This document shows positions 3,945 through 63,247 of a stretch of DNA of 64,000 bases, piece after piece. The stretch comes from Cyanobacteriota bacterium (lineage in GTDB: Bacteria; Cyanobacteriota; Cyanobacteriia; PCC-6307; Cyanobiaceae). Under the pieces are notes generated by a model that worked only from the letters and a program-made list of their open reading frames with translations, did not search any database and was not told the DNA's origin. The stretch lies in the NCBI GenBank assembly GCA_026389335.1, contig JAPLIB010000091.1, positions 9,246 to 73,245 on the forward strand, given 5' to 3'. A program made the translations under genes and the position numbers. Position 1 is the first letter of the stretch; each line of letters starts with the position of its first letter.

Positions 3945-4430
3945 ATGAGCATCGTCTCCAACTCGATCATCAACGCGGACGCCGAAGCCCGCTACCTCAG
4001 CCCTGGCGAACTCGACCAGATCAAGTCGTTCGTGGCTGGTGGTCAGCGTCGCCTCCGCGTCGCCCAGGTCCTGGCGGAAAGCCGGGAGCGCATTGTCAAG
4101 CAGGCCGGAGGCCAGCTTTTTCAGAAGCGCCCCGATGTCATCTCACCCGGAGGCAATGCCTACGGTGAGGAGATGACGGCAAGCTGCCTGCGGGACATGG
4201 ATTACTACCTGCGCCTGGTCACATACGGCGTTGTCGCTGGCGATGTGACGCCGATCGAAGAGATCGGCATCATTGGCGCCCGTGAGATGTACCGCGCCCT
4301 TGGCACTCCCCTGGAAGCGATGGCGGAAGCCGTGCGCGAAATGAAGTCGGTGGCCACCGGCATCCTCACCGGCGCCGATGCCGAGGAAGCTGGTTTCTAC
4401 TTCGACTACGTCGTCGGCGCCCTCTCCTGA
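3945..4430 (+). CDS. apcA: Allophycocyanin alpha subunit
   Basis: [29 protein letters not shown]...[17 protein letters not shown]; 161 aa. Confidence 0.98.
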
Positions 4431-54230: not shown

Positions 54231-54409
54231 AGAGCAACCCCAGGGCTGCCGGTCCACGGAGGAAGCTGCGGTACTGGCGGGCACGGCATGAACCGCTTCG
54301 GGGTGGCAAGCGGACTGCAGTTGGATCCCCGCTCCGCTTGCTCAGCCGCCGCTGCGACCCCTGAGCTCAGCCACCACCGTTCCAGGGCTCAACACCTTCA
54401 CCAACCCAT

Positions 54410-54470
54410 TCAGGCCAACCACTCCTGGGCGAGCCCGTCGATGGACTGAAACTCCGGGTCCACGTCAGGC
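54410..54470 (-). pseudogene. Possible C-terminal remnant of a PIN/VapC toxin
   Basis: DVDPEFQSIDGLAQEWLA* resembles the T/H-x-DPEF...EWL tail of some VapCs (inference). Confidence 0.35.
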
Positions 54471-54510
54471 CGGGCGCTCAAGCCGGCAAGCCATTTCAGG
54501 CCACCCATCT

Positions 54511-54566
54511 GTCTTGTCTCATGCAGCGCACCTCTCGGGTCTTGTTTCATGCAGCGCACCTCTCGG
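54511..54566. repeat. 28-bp tandem duplication
   Basis: GTCTTGTCTCATGCAGCGCACCTCTCGG then GTCTTGTTTCATGCAGCGCACCTCTCGG (1 mismatch). Confidence 0.9.
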
Positions 54567-54579
54567 TGCGACACCAGCC

Positions 54580-55027
54580 TGCGTACTACCCCAGAAGCAC
54601 TGCTGCGACATGCACGCCTACAACCACGATGCGGTCGTGGTTGCGGTTGAAGGGGGCAGATAGCGCCTACGGCTCGACAAGCTCGCCGGACTGCGTCTAC
54701 ATCGCTTCGATGGCGGCAGGGCTGGAGCTGCCAATAACGATGCGGTCGGGCTTCTGGAAATCGGCCACTGCTGAGCACTCCTTGAGGAACTCGGGGTTCG
54801 ACACCACCTCAAACGGGATCTCCACGCCGCGGGCCTGCTGCTCGGTGCGGATCGCATCGGCCACCTTGTCGGCGGTGCCGACGGACACGGTGCTCCTGGT
54901 CACCACGATGCGCGGAGCGTCGATGCAGCGGCCAATGGAGCGGGCGACGGCCAGCACGACTTGGAGGTCGGCGTGGCCGTCTTCATCGGGCGGGGTGCCC
55001 ACGGCGACGCACAGGATCTCGGCGCAG
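54580..55027 (-). pseudogene. ugd: UDP-glucose 6-dehydrogenase fragment A
   Basis: [53 protein letters not shown]; stops and frameshift, both ends missing. Confidence 0.88.
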
Positions 55028-55066
55028 ATGCCCAACCATTCTGCTTGGCAGAACTATGTTGAAGGA

Positions 55067-55345
55067 CTGATTCGTTCGTTTCGATGCCCCGATGCCGAAC
55101 GCCTGGCCCAGGGTTGGGCAGTGCCTCAATTCCAGGCTTTCGAGCGAGTGGCACGCCGCAAGCTCAGGCAACTGGAGATCTCTGGGCGCCTCGATGACCT
55201 ACGCATCCCTCCGGGGAACCGACTGGGGGCACTGCGGGGTGATCGCGCTGGCCAACATAACATCCGCATCAACGACCAATTCCACCTCTGCTTTATCTGG
55301 TCGGAGACAGGCCCTGAAGCTGTTGAACTTGTCGACTACCACTGA
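55067..55345 (+). CDS. higB: HigB toxin (RelE/ParE fold); expected start codon reads CTG
   Basis: (L)IRSFRC...ARRKLRQL...LDDLRIPPGNRL.AL.GDRAGQH.IRINDQ..LCF.W....VELVDYH. Confidence 0.85.
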   Translation: MIRSFRCPDAERLAQGWAVPQFQAFERVARRKLRQLEISGRLDDLRIPPGNRLGALRGDRAGQHNIRINDQFHLCFIWSETGPEAVELVDYH

Positions 55346-55647
55346 TGAATTCCATGGACCGCCTCACACCGATCACACCTGGGGAACTGCGCGATCAGGA
55401 GTTTCTTCGACCTCTTGGCATCAGCCAGTACCGGCTGGCCAAGGCCATTGACGTGCCTGCATCGCGGATCAGCGAGATCGTTACTGGTCAACGTGCCATC
55501 AGTGCAGATACCAATCTGCGACTTTGCCGTTTCCTGGGATTGAGCCCTGGCTACTGGCTACGTGCCCAGGCTGCCCATGACATCGAGGTAGCCAGCACTG
55601 ATCTCGCCGAGGAGATTGAGAGAATTCAGCCCTTTGTGGGCCGCTAA
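55345..55647 (+). CDS. higA: HigA antitoxin (HTH-XRE)
   Basis: TPGE...EFLRPLGISQYRLAKAIDVPASRISEIVTGQRAISADT.LRL.RFLG.SPGYWL.AQ; overlaps higB stop. Confidence 0.92.
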   Translation: MNSMDRLTPITPGELRDQEFLRPLGISQYRLAKAIDVPASRISEIVTGQRAISADTNLRLCRFLGLSPGYWLRAQAAHDIEVASTDLAEEIERIQPFVGR

Positions 55648-55667
55648 CGCTAGAGAGTGGCACCCGA

Positions 55668-55754
55668 TTGGGAGGCTCGAGATCGCTGATGGCGGTGCCT
55701 TCCGCGAGGAACTCAGGGGTGGGAGAGCTCCGAAAAGCTCTTGCGCCCAGAGGT
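55668..55754 (-). pseudogene. ugd: ugd fragment B
   Basis: TSGRKSFSELSH(+1)PEFLAEGTAISDLEPPNRV matches the SFxVLSNPEFLAEGTAIxDLExPDRV segment of Ugd. Confidence 0.75.
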
Positions 55755-55850
55755 CAGGAACTGACGACCCAGGCCCGGCTCCTGGGCTTCATACCAGCGA
55801 GCCGCAGCAGCGAGATCATCTCGGGCTGCGGAGCGGAGACGCAGCACCAC
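55755..55850 (-). pseudogene. ParE/RelE-type toxin, N-terminal third only
   Basis: VVLRLRSAARDDLAAAARWYEAQEPGLGRQFL, then fused to ugd fragment B. Confidence 0.75.
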
Positions 55851-55852
55851 GC

Positions 55853-56055
55853 TCAGAGCGACTGCTCGATGGCATCGAGCACCGCATCGACATAGAGGCC
55901 AGGGTCGCCGTCTGCCAGGAAGCCCTCCAGCCGCTGATCAATCAGTTGCCGATCGGCATCGCTGAGCTCCGGGTCGCTCTGCTCGGCAGCGATCGAGTCC
56001 CACAGGGTCTGGACCAGCTCCAGGCGCTCCGCCAGGGGCAGGGTCAGCAGGTCAT
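55853..56055 (-). pseudogene. Addiction-module antitoxin (TIGR02574-like); start codon out of frame
   Basis: DLLTLPLAERLELVQTLWDSIAAE...DQRLE...AVLDAIEQSL*; ATG at 56055 is one base out of frame; directly upstream of the ParE fragment. Confidence 0.75.
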
Positions 56056-56189
56056 CTCAACAGTAGCGGCGAGATTGGGCGGGACTCCGCTCGCAGCCGG
56101 AAGGAAATGGCGTCTGCCGAGGTGGATGGGGCCGCTTGTCGCCATCGACTTTCTGAGCTGGTCAGGGGCCTCACGACCTGCAGCCCAGC

Positions 56190-56625
56190 TCAGGCGCTTG
56201 GCGGCCTGAGCTCCTCCAGCAACACCGCCAGAGCTTCACTCAGCTGGAGCCGGTTGCGGGAGGTGTCTGCGAGGAGGAATCGGTATTGCGCAACAAGGCA
56301 GCCATCCTGGATTCGAGCTCGGCGAGTCGTCTGTTCTCGATCTCGAGCAGCTTCGTACGCTTCCTGCTCGATGTCGTAAACGGGGCGCCAATTGAACATC
56401 GCCAGCAAGCGCCGCCAGGGCGGCAAGGTGGAGACATATTCCGACCTGGTCATGGGTCGGGAGTCTGCAGAAGCGGGAGACGTTGTCGTCGCCATAGTTC
56501 GTGGTGAACGAAATCAGGAGCAGCAAGGCACCAGCAACAAGGGTTGACCAGCCCTGGCGATCCAGCCGCCGAGGGGGCGGCGCTGCATCAGCCTGCTCCG
56601 GAGGAGTTGCAACGTCTGCCATCAC
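56190..56625 (-). pseudogene. Two-TM + coiled-coil hypothetical protein, frameshifted
   Basis: ORFs 56236-56625 and 56190-56495 join into one protein; similar to 57691-58086. Confidence 0.6.
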
Positions 56626-56734
56626 CGTAGCGAGCTCAAACCAACGCCCATCACCTCATGGTGCGCCAGTACTACGTTGCGGCTCTTCAACAAGGGCCTG
56701 GACATCAATCTCTATAGGCTCTTGAGGCCAACCT

Positions 56735-57094
56735 TCAGGCTGGGCTAATTCCCAGGGCCTGTGCCAGGTCCGCCAGGCGACGGTCCTGCGTCCAGAGGGT
56801 GCAGTGGGTGAGTTTTGCTGAAGCAAGCAGCTGGGCATCAACAAAGCCGATGCCGCGCCCCATCAACTGGTGCTGCTCGATCAGCATCAGCACTTCCGCC
56901 GGGCTGGCCACGCGGGCAGCCGGCAGGCCCTGGAGGAGCTCGAGCACGCGGCTGCGATCGCGAAGGTTGCCGCAGGCGAGTTCACCGATCACCCAGGGAT
57001 GGATCAACACGGCACTCTCCTGGAGGGCTGCCGTGAGCTGCGGCACGCCGGAGCGCAGGTGATCCACCCAGATGGAGGTGTCCACAAGGATCAC
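56735..57094 (-). CDS. vapC: VapC PIN-domain toxin, apparently intact
   Basis: MILVDTSIWVDHL, IGELACG, GIGFVDAQLLASA, LWTQDRRL; acidic tetrad present. Confidence 0.92.
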   Translation of the reverse strand: MILVDTSIWVDHLRSGVPQLTAALQESAVLIHPWVIGELACGNLRDRSRVLELLQGLPAARVASPAEVLMLIEQHQLMGRGIGFVDAQLLASAKLTHCTLWTQDRRLADLAQALGISPA

Positions 57095-57285
57095 GCCGCG
57101 CTCCTGCGACGAGGGACCGGCTGCAGATCGGGCTGGCTGCCCGCGAGGGCAGCCAGGCGTCGGGCGCTCTCCCGCTCCACCAGGGCCTGCAGGGCTTGCT
57201 TGAGCAGACTTGTGCGCTCGAGAGGGCCACAGAGCTCCTGGGCCTGCGCGAGCAGCTGATCATCCAGGTTGACGGTGGTGCGCAT
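57091..57285 (-). CDS. vapB: VapB antitoxin (RHH type)
   Basis: MRTTVNLDDQLLAQAQEL...ALQALVERESARRLAALAGSQP; 4-nt overlap with vapC. Confidence 0.9.
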   Translation of the reverse strand: MRTTVNLDDQLLAQAQELCGPLERTSLLKQALQALVERESARRLAALAGSQPDLQPVPRRRSAA

Positions 57286-57385
57286 GGCCCTCACTCAAGC
57301 TAAAGCATCATTCTAGGCATCATCTGATGATGCATTGCCAACCAAGTCGACAGTTGTGCTCCAGCGGCGGGGCGCAGCTACCACC

Positions 57386-57498
57386 AGGAACTCGGGACTG
57401 GCAAGCACCGCAAAGCTCCTGCGGCCGGAGGACGTTTTGCCCTCGGCGGTTCGCACCGGCAGGGTGCTTTTCTCCACCACGATCGTGTGGCCCTGGGC
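57386..57498 (-). pseudogene. ugd: ugd fragment C
   Basis: AQGHTIVVEKSTLPVRTAE...SGRRSFAVLASPEFL; internal deletion, ends exactly at PEFL. Confidence 0.8.
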
Positions 57499-57690
57499 GC
57501 GGTAGTACTGGCTGTAGACGACGAGGTCCATAGGTCAGGGCCTCCTGAGCGAAAGCTCATCCACCGCCGCCATCAGTGCCAGGCGATCGCTGCGAGCAAG
57601 CGCCGGGCCCATCGCCCTCGAGACCACGCCTGCTTGACCAATACAATACGCATGCACTATTCTTGATCGCTGCGGTGCGGGATTCCTAGG

Positions 57691-58086
57691 GTGGTGGCCA
57701 GATTGGCTTTCGACGGCCCTGCGGCTGTGGAGACCCTCGCCGGCATCGTGATCGGTCTGGTGGCCCTCTTCTCCTCCTATGACCACATCAACCTCCCCGG
57801 TCACGTCCTCCCCCTCCAGCAGCAGTGGGGCGTCTGGCTCATCGCCGTCTCGCTTCCGCTCGTTTTTGCGGATGCTCAATTGGCGGCGCAACCCCGATAC
57901 GGAGAGAGCACTCGGCTTGCTCGACAAGCAGCACGCCATGCTCGATTGGATCGAATCTGAAATCGACTTGATCGAGGCCGACTTGCCTTCGACCTCGACC
58001 CCTCCCCCGCCCATCGACGCCAGCTCCAGCGCCTCCTGAAGCTGCTCGGCAGCCCGGAGTTTCTGAGCCTGCTGGCGGCTGCTTGA
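57691..58086 (+). pseudogene. Second two-TM + coiled-coil hypothetical protein, with internal TGA
   Basis: LAGIVIGLVALFSSYDHI...QQQWGVWLIAVSL...DAQLA; TGA at 57958, same frame continues RGRLAFDLDPSPAHRRQLQRLLKLL to 58086. Confidence 0.6.
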
Positions 58087-58094
58087 AACGCTGT

Positions 58095-59058
58095 TCATAG
58101 CCGCTCGCTCCCGCGGGCCGCAAAGTCCGCCACCGTGCTGGCCAGCCCCTCGGCTAGCCGGATCCGCGCCCGCCAGCCCAACGCCGCCAGCCGGCTCACG
58201 TCCAGCTGCTTCTTCGGGGTGCCATCGGGTTTGCTGGCATCCCAATGGATTTCGCCTCGGAAGCCTGTGGCCGCCGCCACCGCCTCCGCCAGCTCACGGA
58301 TCGTCAGATCCACGCCTGTGCCCACATTCAGAAACTGCAACTCCTCAGGGCCTGGTTGCCAGTGCTCAAAGGCATACACGCAGGCCTCGCCCAGATCATC
58401 CACATGCAGGAATTCCCGTAGCGGCGTGCCGCTGCCCCAGCAGGTGACGCTTGGGGCGTTCGCCTGAGCCGCCTCATGAAAGCGGCGGATCAACGCCGGC
58501 AGTACATGGCTGTTGGTGGGGTGGTAGTTATCCCCAGGCCCGTAGAGGTTCGTGGGCATCAGGCTGATCGCATCAAAGCCGTGCTGCTTCCGCAGTGCCG
58601 CACAGAGCTTGATGCCGGTGATCTTGGCGATCGCGTACCACTCATTGGTGGGCTCCAGCGCCCCCGTGAGCAGCGCTTCCTCGCGGATCGGCTGCTCGGC
58701 GAACTTCGGATAGATGCAGCTGCTCCCCAGAAACAGCAGGCGCCGCACTCCAAAGCGCCAGGCCGTTTCGATCACATGGGTCTGGATCTTGAGGTTCTCC
58801 AGCAGGAAATCAGCTGGGTAGCTGTTGTTGGCCTGGATGCCGCCCACCTTCGCCGCCGCCAGCACCACCACCGTGGGTCGCTGCTCGGCGAACCAGCGCT
58901 GCACGGCCGCCGGGTTGAGCAGATCCAGCTCCTGCCGGGTGGCGGTGAGCTGCTGGCTGTAGCCCGCGCGCTGCAGGGCCCGGCAGATGGCACTGCCCGC
59001 CATGCCCCGGTGGCCGGCCACGAAGAGGCGGTCGGCCGGGGTGATTCAGAGATGCCAT
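58095..59058 (-). CDS. fcl: GDP-L-fucose synthase with a +1 frameshift at codon 4-5
   Basis: [59 protein letters not shown]; ATG at 59058 is out of frame by one A (ATG GCA TCT CTG A ATC ACC). Confidence 0.92.
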
Positions 59059-59163
59059 CAGCCCTGACCTTCTACTTGGTCCAGAGGCGGACTAACATGC
59101 TGGAGGAACTGACGCCTGGATCCGCCCGTGACCGCTTCTCCCCAGCGCACGCTTGCCCAGCGA

Positions 59164-59406: not shown

Positions 59407-59807
59407 CGACAACGGCTGCCTTGGAGCTGTTGCTCGATACCCACGCCCTGCTCTGGTGGCTGGCTGAGCCTGATCGCCTGTCTCCAGCGGCTCAGGCGGC
59501 CATTGCTGAACCTGCCAACGGAGTGCACGTGAGTGCTGCGTCTGGCTGGGAGATCGCCACCAAGGTGCGTCTTGGCAAGCTCCCAGCGGCCAGGGAATTG
59601 CTCGATGATCTGCCCGAGTTGCTTGCAGCCCAAGGGTTTCAGCTGTTGCCGATCACCCTGCAGCACGGCCTCCATGCCGGCAGCTACCCCATGCCCCACC
59701 GCGACCCCTTTGATCGTCTGCTGGCCGCCCAGGCTGAACTGGCCATGCTCACCCTGGTGACCGTGGATCCAGCGCTTCAGGCGTTCCCCTGCCAGCTTCT
59801 CTGGTAG
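59403..59807 (+). CDS. vapC: VapC PIN-domain toxin, apparently intact
   Basis: LLLDTHALLW, SAASGWEIATK, HRDPFDRLLAAQA, VTVDP; 4-nt overlap with the antitoxin. Confidence 0.92.
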   Translation: MTTTAALELLLDTHALLWWLAEPDRLSPAAQAAIAEPANGVHVSAASGWEIATKVRLGKLPAARELLDDLPELLAAQGFQLLPITLQHGLHAGSYPMPHRDPFDRLLAAQAELAMLTLVTVDPALQAFPCQLLW

Positions 59808-59812
59808 CGCCA

Positions 59813-60949
59813 TCAACCCTGGCCTCCTGCTGCCGCAACGGCCGAAGGGTTGGTGGGCGGGTTTTCCATTGAGCCCACCACGTTGAAGCCCTTGAGCCGC
59901 AGGATCGCCTCCTTGCGTGCTTCCTCGCGATCGGTCGCCACCATCTCGGCCACCAGCTGCTCAAGGGTGGTGGTGGGCGTCCAGCCCAGTTTCTCGCGAG
60001 CCTTGGTGGGATCCCCCAGCAGGGTTTCCACCTCCGCCGGGCGGAAGTACCGCGGGTCGATCCGCACCACCACCTCGCCGCTGCTGCGCCGGCCGGTTTC
60101 CTGCACGCCTGTGCCCTCCCATTGCAGGGCCCCCCAGTCCAGTTCCGCGGCCGCCAGCTCAATGAAGCGCCGCACCGATTCCTGCCGCCCTGTGGCGATC
60201 ACGAAATCCTCGGGTGGGCCCTCCTGCTGCAGCATCCGCCATTGCATCTCCACGTAATCCCTGGCGTGGCCCCAATCGCGCCGTGAATCGAGATTGCCCA
60301 TGTAGAGACAATCCCCTAGTCCTTCCTGGATGCGTGCCAGGCCGCGGGTGATCTTGCGCGTGACAAAGGTTTCACCGCGCCTCGGGCTTTCATGGTTAAA
60401 CAGAATTCCGTTGCAGGCATACATGCCATAGGCCTCGCGGTAGTTCACCGTGATCCAGTAGGCATAAAGTTTGGCTACGCCATAGGGGCTGCGTGGATAA
60501 AAGGGCGTGGTTTCCTTCTGGGGGGTTTCCTGCACCAGGCCGTATAGCTCCGAGGTGGAGGCTTGATAGATGCGGGTTTTGTGGGTGAGCCCTAGCAGCC
60601 GCACTGCCTCCAGGATGCGAAGGGTGCCCAGAGCATCACTGTTGGCCGTGTACTCCGGCGCCTCAAAGCTCACCGCCACATGGCTCTGAGCCCCGAGATT
60701 ATAGATTTCATCGGGCTGCACCTGCTCAATGATGCGAATTAGATTGGTGCTATCTGTAAGATCGCCATAGTGGAGCGTCAGCCGCGGATTGCTCTCATGG
60801 GGATCCTGGTAGAGATGGTCAATTCGCGTGGTGTTGAAACTGCTGGCGCGGCGCTTGATGCCATGCACCTGATAACCCTTGTCCAGCAACAGCTCCGCCA
60901 GATAGCTGCCGTCTTGCCCTGTGATACCGGTGATCAGGGCAACAGGCAT
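59813..60949 (-). CDS. gmd: GDP-mannose 4,6-dehydratase
   Basis: [58 protein letters not shown]. Confidence 0.98.
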
Positions 60950-62977: not shown

Positions 62978-63247
62978 TCAGCCCTGCTGTTCCACCCGTT
63001 CCAGCAGAGCCTGGATCAGGGTTTCAGCCCGACGGAGTTGCTCACGCTGGTGGCTCAGCAGTTGCTCCTGCTTCTGGTGCTCCAGAAGATAAATTTCAAC
63101 TTCTTCCTGAACCTGTTGCAGCATCAGCAGGTTGAGCTCCGCTTCATCGCGCACCGTTTCAAGCTGGATGAAGAGGCTGGAAATTTCAGCTTCTTGGTCG
63201 CAGGGGTCGGCTGCGCTGGTTACCCTCGTATTTGTCATCCAAAGCAA
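62978..63247 (-). CDS. Short coiled-coil protein or fragment
   Basis: EAELNLLMLQQVQEEVEIYLLEHQKQEQLL; heptad pattern. Confidence 0.5.
   Translation of the reverse strand: MLWMTNTRVTSAADPCDQEAEISSLFIQLETVRDEAELNLLMLQQVQEEVEIYLLEHQKQEQLLSHQREQLRRAETLIQALLERVEQQG

What the first reader, a model, noticed from the sequence alone, without database searches (positions are those of the whole stretch)
55668..57498. ugd split at its conserved PEFL motif with a TA cargo block between diverged ~47-bp direct repeats
Seen: on the minus strand, ugd fragment C ends at ...SGRRSFAVLASPEFL (57386-57432). After about 1.6 kb of cargo (vapBC, a membrane-protein gene, an addiction antitoxin and a truncated parE), fragment B restarts with TSGRKSFSELSH-PEFLAEGTAISDLE (55707-55754). 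By manual alignment the duplicated segment is 35/47 identical. A third, differently derived ugd fragment A (SNPEFLKE type) lies beyond higBA. This is the same architecture as the gmd/fcl insert. Inference: highly conserved stretches of nucleotide-sugar genes act as recurrent landing pads, so TA modules accumulate with scraps of ugd from different donors. This could be an undescribed mode of TA cassette traffic (homology-facilitated recombination) in cyanobacterial glycan islands.
Basis: partly seen in the sequence, partly recalled or inferred. Interest (0 to 1): 0.75.

Follow-up and report, generated by a model that had tools for sequence, protein, structure and literature searches.

The report
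Decayed ugd copies in a toxin-antitoxin array
The two ugd pieces that bracket the toxin-antitoxin genes are leftovers of two neighbouring, separately decayed copies of an extra ugd gene in a repeat-built gene array, not one gene split by an insertion at its conserved PEFL motif, so the case is much more ordinary than proposed.

Summary
On the minus strand, ugd fragment C (57512-57385) ends at PEFL. About 1.63 kb later, fragment B (55754-55661) repeats some 50 nt at 74% identity. Fragment A (55035-54697) is a different, TuaD-type dehydrogenase remnant.

The landing-pad reading is not supported.
- B belongs to a ready-made block, E element - antitoxin - ParE - ugd remnant, which is intact in another species' MAG. 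The window copy lost about 320 bp, fusing ParE codon 32 to the ugd remnant, so B's start is a deletion edge.
- B and C are each closer to a third copy in the same genome than to each other.
- About 16 remnant ends map all along ugd. Only one lies at PEFL.
- vapBC homologues occur in 52 of 124 congeners and never lie beside that genome's intact ugd.
- ugd scraps are nearly confined to this genome.

The region is an outpost of a tandem array of units: promoter-like element U, an ORF (Rpn-like DUF2887/DUF4351 or a 2-TM protein), a ~135-bp element E, then a decaying ugd paralogue. TA modules sit in the decayed linkers. Metagenome haplotypes differ by whole blocks. The array family itself appears to be undescribed and is modestly interesting.

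The parts
57691..58039 (+). Remnant of a small 2-TM/coiled-coil gene (family 'Z'), shortened and frameshifted, lying between the fcl stop (58095) and ugd fragment C.
   Evidence: Window 57727-58068 matches C29, C80 and the end of C14 at 70-81% nt; an intact 159-aa paralogue lies at C14:77259-77735.
57385..57512 (-). ugd fragment C: a remnant of the third ugd lineage ('ugdX'), residues about 127-173 in C105 numbering. It has a 30-bp internal deletion and ends at PEFL.
   Evidence: Its 5' 60 nt are 95% identical to C109 180-239 and its 3' 73 nt are 82% identical to C38 138-211. It is 99% identical in haplotype L007.
57317..57333 (.). Perfect palindrome GCATCATCAGATGATGC about 25 bp upstream of vapB; probably the vapBC operator. 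It lies inside the stretch conserved with vapBC modules of other species.
   Evidence: Sequence read. In one search, homology to 52 congeners extends to window positions 57329-57336.
56735..57294 (-). Intact vapB (57294-57091) and vapC/PIN (57094-56735) type II TA pair, single copy in this genome.
   Evidence: PF09957 E 1e-12; PF01850 E 8e-10. Searches found homologues in 52 of 124 congeners, none next to ugd.
56190..56673 (-). Array ORF type 2: a 2-TM/coiled-coil gene ('memb'), split here over two frames (56625-56236 and 56495-56190), so a pseudogene.
   Evidence: It is 86% nt identical to the intact 179-aa copy at C38 3144-3680; further copies lie on C74, C109, C154 and C157.
56045..56213 (-). 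Element E: a conserved non-coding element of about 135 bp that begins just after the stop of the upstream array ORF (GGGCTGCAG...) and ends ...GAGTCCCGCCCAAT.
   Evidence: nhmmer (10 copies in the genome, all on array contigs). Alignment of 17 copies from 5 genomes. Not a hairpin or known RNA.
55853..56056 (-). TIGR02574/Unstab_antitox antitoxin gene without a start codon; a 39-bp deletion removed the GTG start that is kept in L016 and C109.
55755..55850 (-). ParE toxin remnant, codons 1-32 only, fused to ugd fragment B.
   Evidence: One search shows the L016 orthologue is a complete 100-aa ParE (PF05016 positions 2-88 of 89).
55661..55754 (-). ugd fragment B: a ugdX remnant, residues about 160-190, with a +1 frameshift at PEFL. 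It belongs to the array unit after fragment C's unit.
   Evidence: Its blastn match to C38 150-241 is 88% identical (82/95, 86%, in the alignment). It is 83% identical to the L016 remnant.
55028..55647 (+). higB (55028-55345) and higA (55345-55647) TA pair, on the opposite strand, sitting in the ugdX remnant at about residue 186-190.
   Evidence: Searches show an 88% nt paralogue at C157 2294-2909 whose higB end abuts ugdX residues 186-209, while the window's higA end abuts residue about 190.
54697..55035 (-). ugd fragment A: remnant of a bacterial TuaD-type nucleotide-sugar dehydrogenase (Pfam N-domain positions 77-180). There is no intact copy of this type in the genome.
54407..56176 (.). 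Population-variable block. In haplotype L007/L011 this 1.77 kb (E through fragment A) is replaced by about 1.0 kb carrying U and a C-terminally cut DUF2887 gene.

Best explanation
Window 54.4-58.1 kb is an outlying piece of a tandem, decaying gene array that lies inside the surface-glycan island of a freshwater picocyanobacterium.

The array unit is: U (about 120 bp, promoter-like) - one ORF (either an Rpn-like PD-(D/E)XK nuclease with DUF2887+DUF4351, or a small 2-TM protein) - E (about 135 bp) - a copy of a third ugd paralogue ('ugdX'). In every unit ugdX is dead and has been whittled by deletions from both ends. Type II TA modules (Unstab_antitox/ParE, HigBA, VapBC) sit inside these dead linkers.

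Fragment C is what is left of ugdX in one unit. Its 3' part and the following U were replaced by vapBC, after which come that unit's 2-TM gene and E. Fragment B is what is left of ugdX in the next unit, downstream of an antitoxin-ParE pair. The diverged 47-50 bp 'direct repeat' is simply the stretch (residues about 160-173) that both remnants happen to retain.

Shown:
- the module map;
- the deletion of about 320 bp that made the ParE'-B junction;
- that B and C are not sister copies;
- the scatter of remnant ends;
- block-wise haplotype differences.

Inferred:
- the array grew by tandem duplication or unequal crossing-over between repeated U, E and ugdX sequences;
- it shrinks by microhomology-associated deletions;
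- TA and Rpn-like modules persist because losing them is costly.
For: 1. Module map. On C38, C96, C157, C74 and C109, and in MAG loci L016 and L019, ugd remnants lie between E and U, in the same orientation as the ORFs: E|27-473|U (C109+C38), E|235-473|U (C38, C96, C109), E|~64-119|U (C74), E|~79-121|U (C157, L019, G130).
2. The window's modules recur at 70-95% nt identity on those contigs.
3. L016 carries E - antitoxin (GTG start) - complete ParE - ugdX 141-233 - U. The window aligns to it at 80-83% with one 39-bp gap and one gap of about 320 bp that joins ParE codon 32 to ugdX. C109 has a third version of this block, E - antitoxin - ... - ugdX 194-473 - U.
4. In the overlap, B-C identity is 74%, C-C38 about 85% and B-C38 about 88%.
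5. Haplotype L007/L011 keeps fragment C, vapBC and the 2-TM gene but carries U-DUF2887' instead of E through fragment A. Its inserted block is flanked by a 7-bp AGGTGTT repeat.
6. The cargo is largely decayed: a frameshifted 2-TM gene, a start-less antitoxin and a cut ParE.
7. ugd scraps are almost unique to this genome among 125 congeners, and full-length E occurs in only 3 of 125.
8. In G058 and L021 the same U'-ORF-E cassettes are separated by a histidine-kinase C-terminal fossil instead of ugd. The linkers are therefore carried-along fossils.
Against: - The order of the short array contigs is unknown. The genome has 171 contigs and may be a MAG, so some 'paralogues' could be alternative haplotypes of co-occurring strains rather than copies in one chromosome.
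- No unit with an intact ugdX between E and U was found; the best has residues 27-473, broken by a MITE and an IS.
- The 3' end of E is a remarkably fixed point joined to at least six different sequences (ugd at four positions, a kinase tail, the higA end). Fixed-end deletions or a true element terminus would explain that better than random decay.
- Units within this genome are often closer to units in other species (E of C157 vs L019: 91-94%) than to each other (about 75%), and the array is sporadic in the genus. That pattern fits horizontal cassette traffic as well as ancient duplication.
- Fragment C has no E upstream. Its assignment to 'the unit before B' rests on order and orientation only.
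Confidence: 0.65

Rival explanations
1. One ugd gene was split at the conserved PEFL stretch when a TA-bearing segment, flanked by a ugd scrap from another donor, recombined there (homology-facilitated recombination). This left a 47-bp duplication, and conserved sugar-nucleotide gene motifs are recurrent landing pads.
For: The two arms are direct, homologous and flank TA genes. A second TA pair, between gmd and fcl, is bracketed by an imperfect duplicate of about 22 bp of the gmd-stop/fcl-start overlap. TA modules and ugd remnants also co-occur on C157, C109, L016 and L019.
Against: B's start is a deletion edge inside an antitoxin-ParE-ugd block conserved in L016. The arms are 74% identical and each is closer to a third copy. 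Only 1 of about 16 remnant ends lies at PEFL. vapBC homologues in 52 congeners are never next to ugd. There are almost no ugd scraps in 124 congeners. The TA-plus-scrap co-occurrences elsewhere are the same inherited blocks, not independent hits.
Confidence: 0.06
2. The cassette U'-ORF-E is itself a mobile or actively recombining unit, possibly moved by the Rpn-like nuclease it often encodes. It has entered ugdX at several positions, and a histidine-kinase gene in other lineages. E's 3' end is a true element terminus, and the ugd remnants are target fragments left between successive insertions.
For: E ends at the same few bases (...CCCGCC[C/G]AAT) but is followed by ugd residues 27, about 64, about 79 or 235, by a kinase tail, by the higA end or by an antitoxin. 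Two unrelated ORFs share the same 5' (U) and 3' (E) flanks. Units are more similar across species than within the genome, and the array is sporadic, with full-length E in 3 of 125 congeners. DUF2887 is a YhgA/Rpn-like PD-(D/E)XK family once annotated as a putative transposase (PMC3045609).
Against: There are no terminal inverted repeats, no consistent target duplications and no recombinase. No tyrosine recombinase lies on C14 or on any array contig. The ugd remnants overlap one another (27-162, about 64-119, about 79-121), so they are not collinear pieces of one target. The junction types are few and are shared between species, as expected if units were duplicated after a handful of deletion events. 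In G058 no intact kinase gene adjoins the array.
Confidence: 0.2
3. Binning or assembly artefact. The scrap-bearing short contigs, or the window arrangement itself, are chimeras or strain mixtures, so there is no real array.
For: The genome has 171 contigs. The array contigs are 2.6-14 kb and end in multi-copy IS/MITE sequence. Metagenomes from the same source hold at least two haplotypes.
Against: The window arrangement is reproduced at 99.4-100% identity in four independent metagenome assemblies spanning 57877-51468, 59221-54301 and 63111-51721. Similar arrays sit on longer contigs of other genomes: G058 on a 106-kb contig, plus L016, L019 and L021.
Confidence: 0.04

Closest known systems
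TA-rich chromosomal cassette arrays (sedentary chromosomal integrons such as the Vibrio superintegron; recalled from my own knowledge)
   Same: Many small cassettes in one orientation, separated by a conserved repeat of about 120-135 bp. Type II TA modules are interspersed and plausibly resist loss. Cassette content varies between strains.
   Different: No integron integrase, and no tyrosine recombinase on any array contig. E is not an attC-like hairpin (fold z-score -0.86) and shows no covariation. Cassettes carry their own promoter-like U. Linkers contain fossils of a host gene.
Rpn (YhgA-like) recombination-promoting nucleases, described as gene-within-gene toxin-antitoxin and anti-phage systems (bioRxiv 10.1101/2023.05.02.539157; family link in PMC3045609)
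   Same: The array's main ORF has DUF2887 (a PD-(D/E)XK domain related to YhgA-like proteins) plus C-terminal DUF4351, the domain that paper equates with the small RpnS antitoxin.
   Different: No activity has been tested here. There are tandem arrays of up to five copies with shared flanks, which those papers do not describe. The window itself holds no DUF2887 gene; only its L007 haplotype does.
Homology-facilitated illegitimate recombination, and glycan-locus replacement by crossovers in conserved flanking genes (for example galF/gnd/ugd around enterobacterial O-antigen and capsule loci; recalled from my own knowledge)
   Same: Conserved sugar-nucleotide genes lie next to hypervariable content. 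The repeated homologous stretches (ugdX, U, E) could serve as crossover points.
   Different: No crossover could be placed in ugd here. The one junction that could be reconstructed is a plain deletion. The haplotype breakpoints lie at the edge of E and inside a DUF2887 gene, not in ugd.
TA pairs located in genomic islands of estuarine and freshwater picocyanobacteria (Synechococcus CB0101, PMC5498466)
   Same: Type II TA pairs fall within non-core genomic islands and are presumed to be horizontally acquired.
   Different: That work does not describe repeat-flanked arrays or gene fossils between the modules.

Membership tests
Insertion with target-site duplication into a single gene | The two flanking repeats derive from one target sequence, so they should be each other's closest relatives and near-identical for a recent event. 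| tested here: not met
   B-C identity is 37/50 (74%). Each is closer to the C38 copy (about 85-88%).
Insertion with target-site duplication into a single gene | Both edges of the cargo are insertion junctions. | tested here: not met
   The cargo/B edge is a deletion of about 320 bp within a ParE-ugd block that is intact in L016.
Recurrent landing pad at a conserved motif (PEFL) | Breakpoints cluster at the motif in independent loci or genomes. | tested here: not met
   1 of about 16 remnant ends is at PEFL. There are almost no ugd scraps in 124 congeners.
Recurrent landing pad at a conserved motif (PEFL) | The same TA families are found next to ugd elsewhere through independent events. | tested here: not met
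   vapBC homologues in 52 of 124 congeners are not beside that genome's intact ugd, and none of the 10 loci with sequence on both sides has a ugd scrap. The higBA and ParE associations on C157, C109, L016 and L019 are the same inherited blocks.
UDP-glucose 6-dehydrogenase (functional gene) | Complete N-terminal NAD-binding, central and C-terminal domains in one open frame. | tested here: not met
   C covers about 47 residues, B about 31 with a frameshift, and A 112 (Pfam N-domain positions 77-180 only). Two intact copies lie elsewhere, on C25 and C105.
Type II TA module VapBC | A VapB antitoxin gene followed by an overlapping PIN-domain toxin gene, both open. | tested here: met
   PF09957 and PF01850 match. 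The genes overlap by 4 bp (57094/57091) and both frames are open.
Type II TA module ParDE-like (Unstab_antitox/ParE) | Intact antitoxin with a start codon and a full-length ParE toxin. | tested here: not met
   The antitoxin lacks its GTG start (39-bp deletion) and ParE stops at codon 32.
Integron cassette array | An IntI tyrosine recombinase adjacent to the array. | tested here: not met
   The five PF00589 matches in the genome are all on other contigs.
Integron cassette array | attC sites: imperfect palindromes that fold as hairpins between cassettes. | tested here: not met
   E folds no better than shuffles (z -0.86). The consensus fold shows 1 compensatory pair out of 21.
Rpn/YhgA-like nuclease TA (for the array ORF) | An N-terminal PD-(D/E)XK domain (DUF2887 / YhgA-like) plus a C-terminal RpnS-type domain (DUF4351). 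| tested here: met
   In the C157 copy, PF11103 has E 4e-25 and PF14261 has E 1e-20. Nuclease and antitoxin activity cannot be tested with these tools.

The most novel reading that the evidence does not exclude
U'-ORF-E units form a previously undescribed cassette system of freshwater picocyanobacteria. Unrelated ORFs (Rpn-like nuclease/antitoxin genes and a 2-TM protein) share the same promoter-side and terminator-side elements. The fixed 3' end of E is a recombination terminus, perhaps cut by the Rpn-like nuclease. Cassettes enter host genes such as ugd or a histidine-kinase gene, carrying target fossils and TA modules along. That would be a recombinase-free, nuclease-driven analogue of an integron.
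Probability: 0.13. Interest if true: 0.65.

Novelty: new member of a known kind. Interest (0 to 1): 0.3.

Why it matters
Taken at face value, the finding would have been a new route of toxin-antitoxin spread through conserved enzyme motifs. The evidence shows something more ordinary: tandem copies of a spare ugd gene that decayed in place, with deletions and block swaps around addictive modules.

This is a useful caution. Two overlapping gene remnants flanking cargo can mimic a target duplication.

What remains of interest is the array itself:
- Rpn-like DUF2887/DUF4351 genes and a 2-TM gene share conserved flanking elements.
- The array is present in a few freshwater picocyanobacteria only and differs between co-occurring haplotypes.
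- It shows how defence and TA modules persist and reshuffle inside the glycan islands that govern phage and grazer interactions.

Tried and rejected
1. E as an attC-like hairpin, tRNA fragment or known RNA. Rfam found no relevant match (one unrelated sub-threshold sRNA hit, E 0.17, outside E), there is no tRNA in the window, the fold z-score is -0.86 and there is no covariation.
2. E's 3' part as a decayed piece of ugd around PDRV. nhmmer of the E profile against four ugd copies gave nothing (best E 1.7), so this was dropped.
3. A 51-bp deletion in the C38 copy that shares B's start. This was an alignment artefact: C38 positions 1-140 are a multi-copy IS/MITE end, and the ugd part aligns without the gap.
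4. Microhomology AGTTCCTG at both the C|cargo and ParE'|B junctions as the recombination point. The ParE copy of this string is native ParE sequence (QFL, also in L016), and the deletion product does not use the PEFL copy.
5. higBA insertion with a target duplication (ATCGGGTG). The window keeps the left junction and C157 the right one, and both abut ugdX residues 186-190. This is suggestive, but it rests on two different copies, so it is not claimed.
6. A 3'-end attachment-site model for the kinase-tail arrays. In G058 no intact kinase gene adjoins the array.
7. DUF2887 expansion as the cause of the scraps. G002 and G009 have 10-13 copies, some tandem, but no ugd scraps and no E.
Full report
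**What is in the sequence.** The window is G000:C14:9246-73245 of a 4.05-Mb, 64% G+C, 171-contig genome. Hits to related MAGs are labelled Prochlorococcaceae/Synechococcaceae from lakes and reservoirs, so this is a freshwater picocyanobacterium. Reading the minus strand downstream of gmd (60949-59813) and fcl (59021-58095), the order is as follows:
- a shortened 2-TM gene on the opposite strand (57691-58039);
- ugd fragment C (57512-57385);
- vapB/vapC (57294-56735, intact);
- a 2-TM gene split over two frames (56625-56190);
- a conserved non-coding element I call E (56213-56045);
- a TIGR02574/Unstab_antitox gene without a start codon (56056-55853);
- the first 32 codons of ParE (55850-55755), fused to ugd fragment B (55754-55661, with a +1 frameshift at PEFL);
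- higA and higB on the other strand (55647-55028);
- fragment A (55035-54697), a TuaD-type nucleotide-sugar dehydrogenase remnant.

B and C overlap by about 50 nt at 74% identity. The arrangement is not an assembly chimera, because four independent metagenome assemblies reproduce it at 99.4-100% identity.

**The fragments are not two halves of one gene.** The genome has two intact eukaryote-like ugd genes, on C25 and C105, which are about 75% identical at the protein level. It also has many remnants on short contigs C38, C96, C109, C157 and C74. B and C belong to a third lineage, ugdX, recognisable by TAEVITTILTAEEGHTSSGRKSFSVLSNPEFL. Its most complete copy, residues 27-473, is spread over C109 and C38 and is broken by a MITE and an IS. 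In the overlap, C is about 85% identical to that copy and B about 88%, while B and C are 74% identical to each other. They are not sister sequences, so they are not the product of a duplication made by an insertion.

**The cargo/B junction is a deletion.** Searching public genomes for the core of E found the same element in four other picocyanobacterial MAGs. One of them, L016, carries E - antitoxin with a GTG start - a complete 100-residue ParE (PF05016 positions 2-88 of 89) - a short spacer - ugdX residues 141-233 - U - DUF2887. The window aligns to this block at 80-83% identity with two gaps. A 39-bp gap removed the antitoxin start. A gap of about 320 bp removed ParE codons 33-100, the spacer and ugdX residues 141-159. 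Contig C109 holds a third version, E - antitoxin - ... - ugdX 194-473 - U. Fragment B therefore travelled with the antitoxin/ParE pair, and its 'restart' at TSGRKSF is a deletion edge.

**The region is part of a repeat-built array.** Profile searches for E and for a second conserved element, U, were combined with tblastn for the proteins. They give the same grammar on C38, C96, C157, C74 and C109, and in L016, L019 and L021: U - ORF - E - linker - U - ORF - E, and so on.
- The ORF is either a DUF2887+DUF4351 protein or a 2-TM/coiled-coil protein with no family match.
- Both ORF types share the same U upstream, about 120 bp containing a CAGTAC-N4-6-GTACTG palindrome, and the same E downstream.
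- In G000, its closest relative G130, L016 and L019, the linker is a ugdX remnant, always in the ORF orientation, cut at its 5' end next to E and at its 3' end next to U: 27-473, 235-473 (three times), about 64-119, about 79-121, or a few dozen bases.
- In G058 and L021 the linker is instead the C-terminal tail of a histidine kinase. The linkers are thus fossils copied along with the units.

TA modules occupy the linkers: antitoxin/ParE after E (window, C109, L016), and higBA within ugdX at about residue 186-190 (window left junction, C157 right junction). In the window, fragment C, the 2-TM gene and E read as one unit in which vapBC replaced ugdX 174-473 and U. Fragment B is the next unit's remnant.

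**Tests of the landing-pad idea.**
- Remnant ends: 5' ends fall at residues 27, 64-69, 79-86, 127, 141, 160, 186, 194-210, 235 and 251 (C105 numbering). 3' ends fall at 119-121, 173 (PEFL), 188-190, 209, 233, 434 and the natural stop. One of about sixteen is at PEFL.
- Congeners: in 124 other species of the genus there is essentially one intact ugd per genome and only a handful of partial matches, many of them contig-end truncations.
- vapBC: the module has homologues at 72-84% nt identity in 52 of the 124. They lie on other contigs than the intact ugd, or far from it. None of the 10 loci that have sequence on both sides of vapBC shows a ugd remnant within about 1.5 kb.
- Full-length E occurs in only 3 of 125 genus representatives.

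The co-occurrence of TA modules and ugd scraps is real, but it is confined to this array family and reflects shared blocks, not repeated hits on a motif.

**Population variation.** A second haplotype (L007, L011) is 95-99% identical over fragment C, vapBC and the 2-TM gene, and 98% identical to the right of 54407. Between these it replaces the 1.77 kb from E to fragment A with about 1.0 kb carrying U and a DUF2887 gene cut in its C-terminal region. The left breakpoint is 8 bp into E. The two haplotypes share the right boundary GGTGAAGGTGTTGAGCCC, and the L007 block is flanked by a 7-bp AGGTGTT repeat. These are illegitimate, short-homology junctions. Neither lies in ugd.

**What the array may be.** DUF2887 is a predicted PD-(D/E)XK nuclease family related to YhgA-like (Rpn) proteins (PMC3045609). 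DUF4351 is the domain equated with the small RpnS antitoxin of Rpn toxin-antitoxin/anti-phage genes (bioRxiv 10.1101/2023.05.02.539157). The array is therefore a cluster of addictive or defensive modules in a glycan island, in line with TA pairs of Synechococcus CB0101 lying in genomic islands (PMC5498466). It is not an integron: no tyrosine recombinase lies on C14 or on any array contig, and E is neither a hairpin nor a known RNA.

One feature is not fully explained by passive decay. E ends within a few bases of the same point, yet it is joined to at least six different sequences, and units are often closer between species than within the genome. I therefore keep a mobile-cassette reading as the main rival, at about 0.2.

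**Caveats.** The order of the array contigs is unknown. They end in multi-copy IS/MITE sequence, and some may be haplotypes rather than paralogues. No intact E-ugdX-U unit was found. The overlap between B and C is only about 50 nt, so the 'not sister copies' statement rests on few sites, although it is backed by the independent L016 comparison.

**Verdict.** The proposed mechanism is not supported. The best explanation, at about 0.65, is overlapping remnants of two adjacent decayed ugd copies in a tandem TA/Rpn-like array, shaped by deletions and block exchange. The interest of the finding as stated is low to moderate. The array family is a modestly novel by-product.

Noticed in passing
window 63105-63111 (locus L006 1264-3984): One metagenome assembly carries a 2.7-kb IS21-family element (IstB plus a Mu-transposase_C-type gene) inserted here, with about 7 bp of overlap that looks like a target duplication. 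The window lacks it, so the insertion is polymorphic in the population.
   Followed up: partly
window 59780-59870 and 58990-59140: The Phd/PIN pair between gmd and fcl is bracketed by an imperfect duplicate of about 22 bp of the gmd-stop/fcl-start overlap (GGCCAGGGTTGATGGCG... vs GGTCAGGGCTGATGGCA...). The paralogous gmd-fcl pair on C146 has a plain ATGA overlap and no insert. Any insertion that keeps both overlapping genes intact must duplicate this junction.
   Followed up: partly
window 54511-54566: A tandem 28-bp repeat (GTCTTGTCTCATGCAGCGCACCTCTCGG, two copies, 96% identical). Related copies lie on C71, C24, C20 and C33, so this is a small dispersed repeat family.
   Followed up: no
G000 contigs C38:1-140, C109:1-141, C157:1-157 and many other contig ends: At least two multi-copy elements occupy contig ends: about 15 copies at 99-100% identity for the one at C38 1-140. 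A separate MITE of about 270 bp sits inside the ugdX copy on C109 (414-684). This suggests recent IS/MITE activity and explains the fragmented assembly.
   Followed up: partly
L035 (G058:C20:22000-29500) and L021: Tandem arrays of up to five U'-DUF2887-E units. Their linkers are fossils of a histidine-kinase C-terminus (…GSGIGLSLVRLLIEAMGGRVQV…ADFQLVL) rather than ugd. A Uma2-family endonuclease gene and a PIN gene are embedded in the G058 array.
   Followed up: partly
L016 2837-3466, 5162-6304, 6289-6870: The related array in MAG RE-23may17-332 also holds a Uma2-type endonuclease gene, a Fic-domain gene (both identified by eye from motifs) and what looks like the C-terminal fragment of a GT4 glycosyltransferase just before a DUF2887 unit. 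Other glycan-island genes therefore also leave scraps.
   Followed up: no
G000 C29:6886-7491, C80:2712-3110, C14:77259-77735: The small 2-TM/coiled-coil 'Z' family is multi-copy and lies directly downstream of sugar-nucleotide genes elsewhere too, for example after an RmlD-like C-terminus on C29. It is distantly similar to the array's 2-TM protein (39% over 90 residues in G130).
   Followed up: no
U element, e.g. C157:1089-1209 and 4105-4225: The shared upstream element of the two unrelated array ORFs contains a conserved inverted repeat, CAGTAC-N4-6-GTACTG. Its 5' half has a GGCGG-TGC-CCGCC hairpin that starts about 10 bp after the natural ugdX stop. These are possibly an operator and a terminator.
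   Followed up: no
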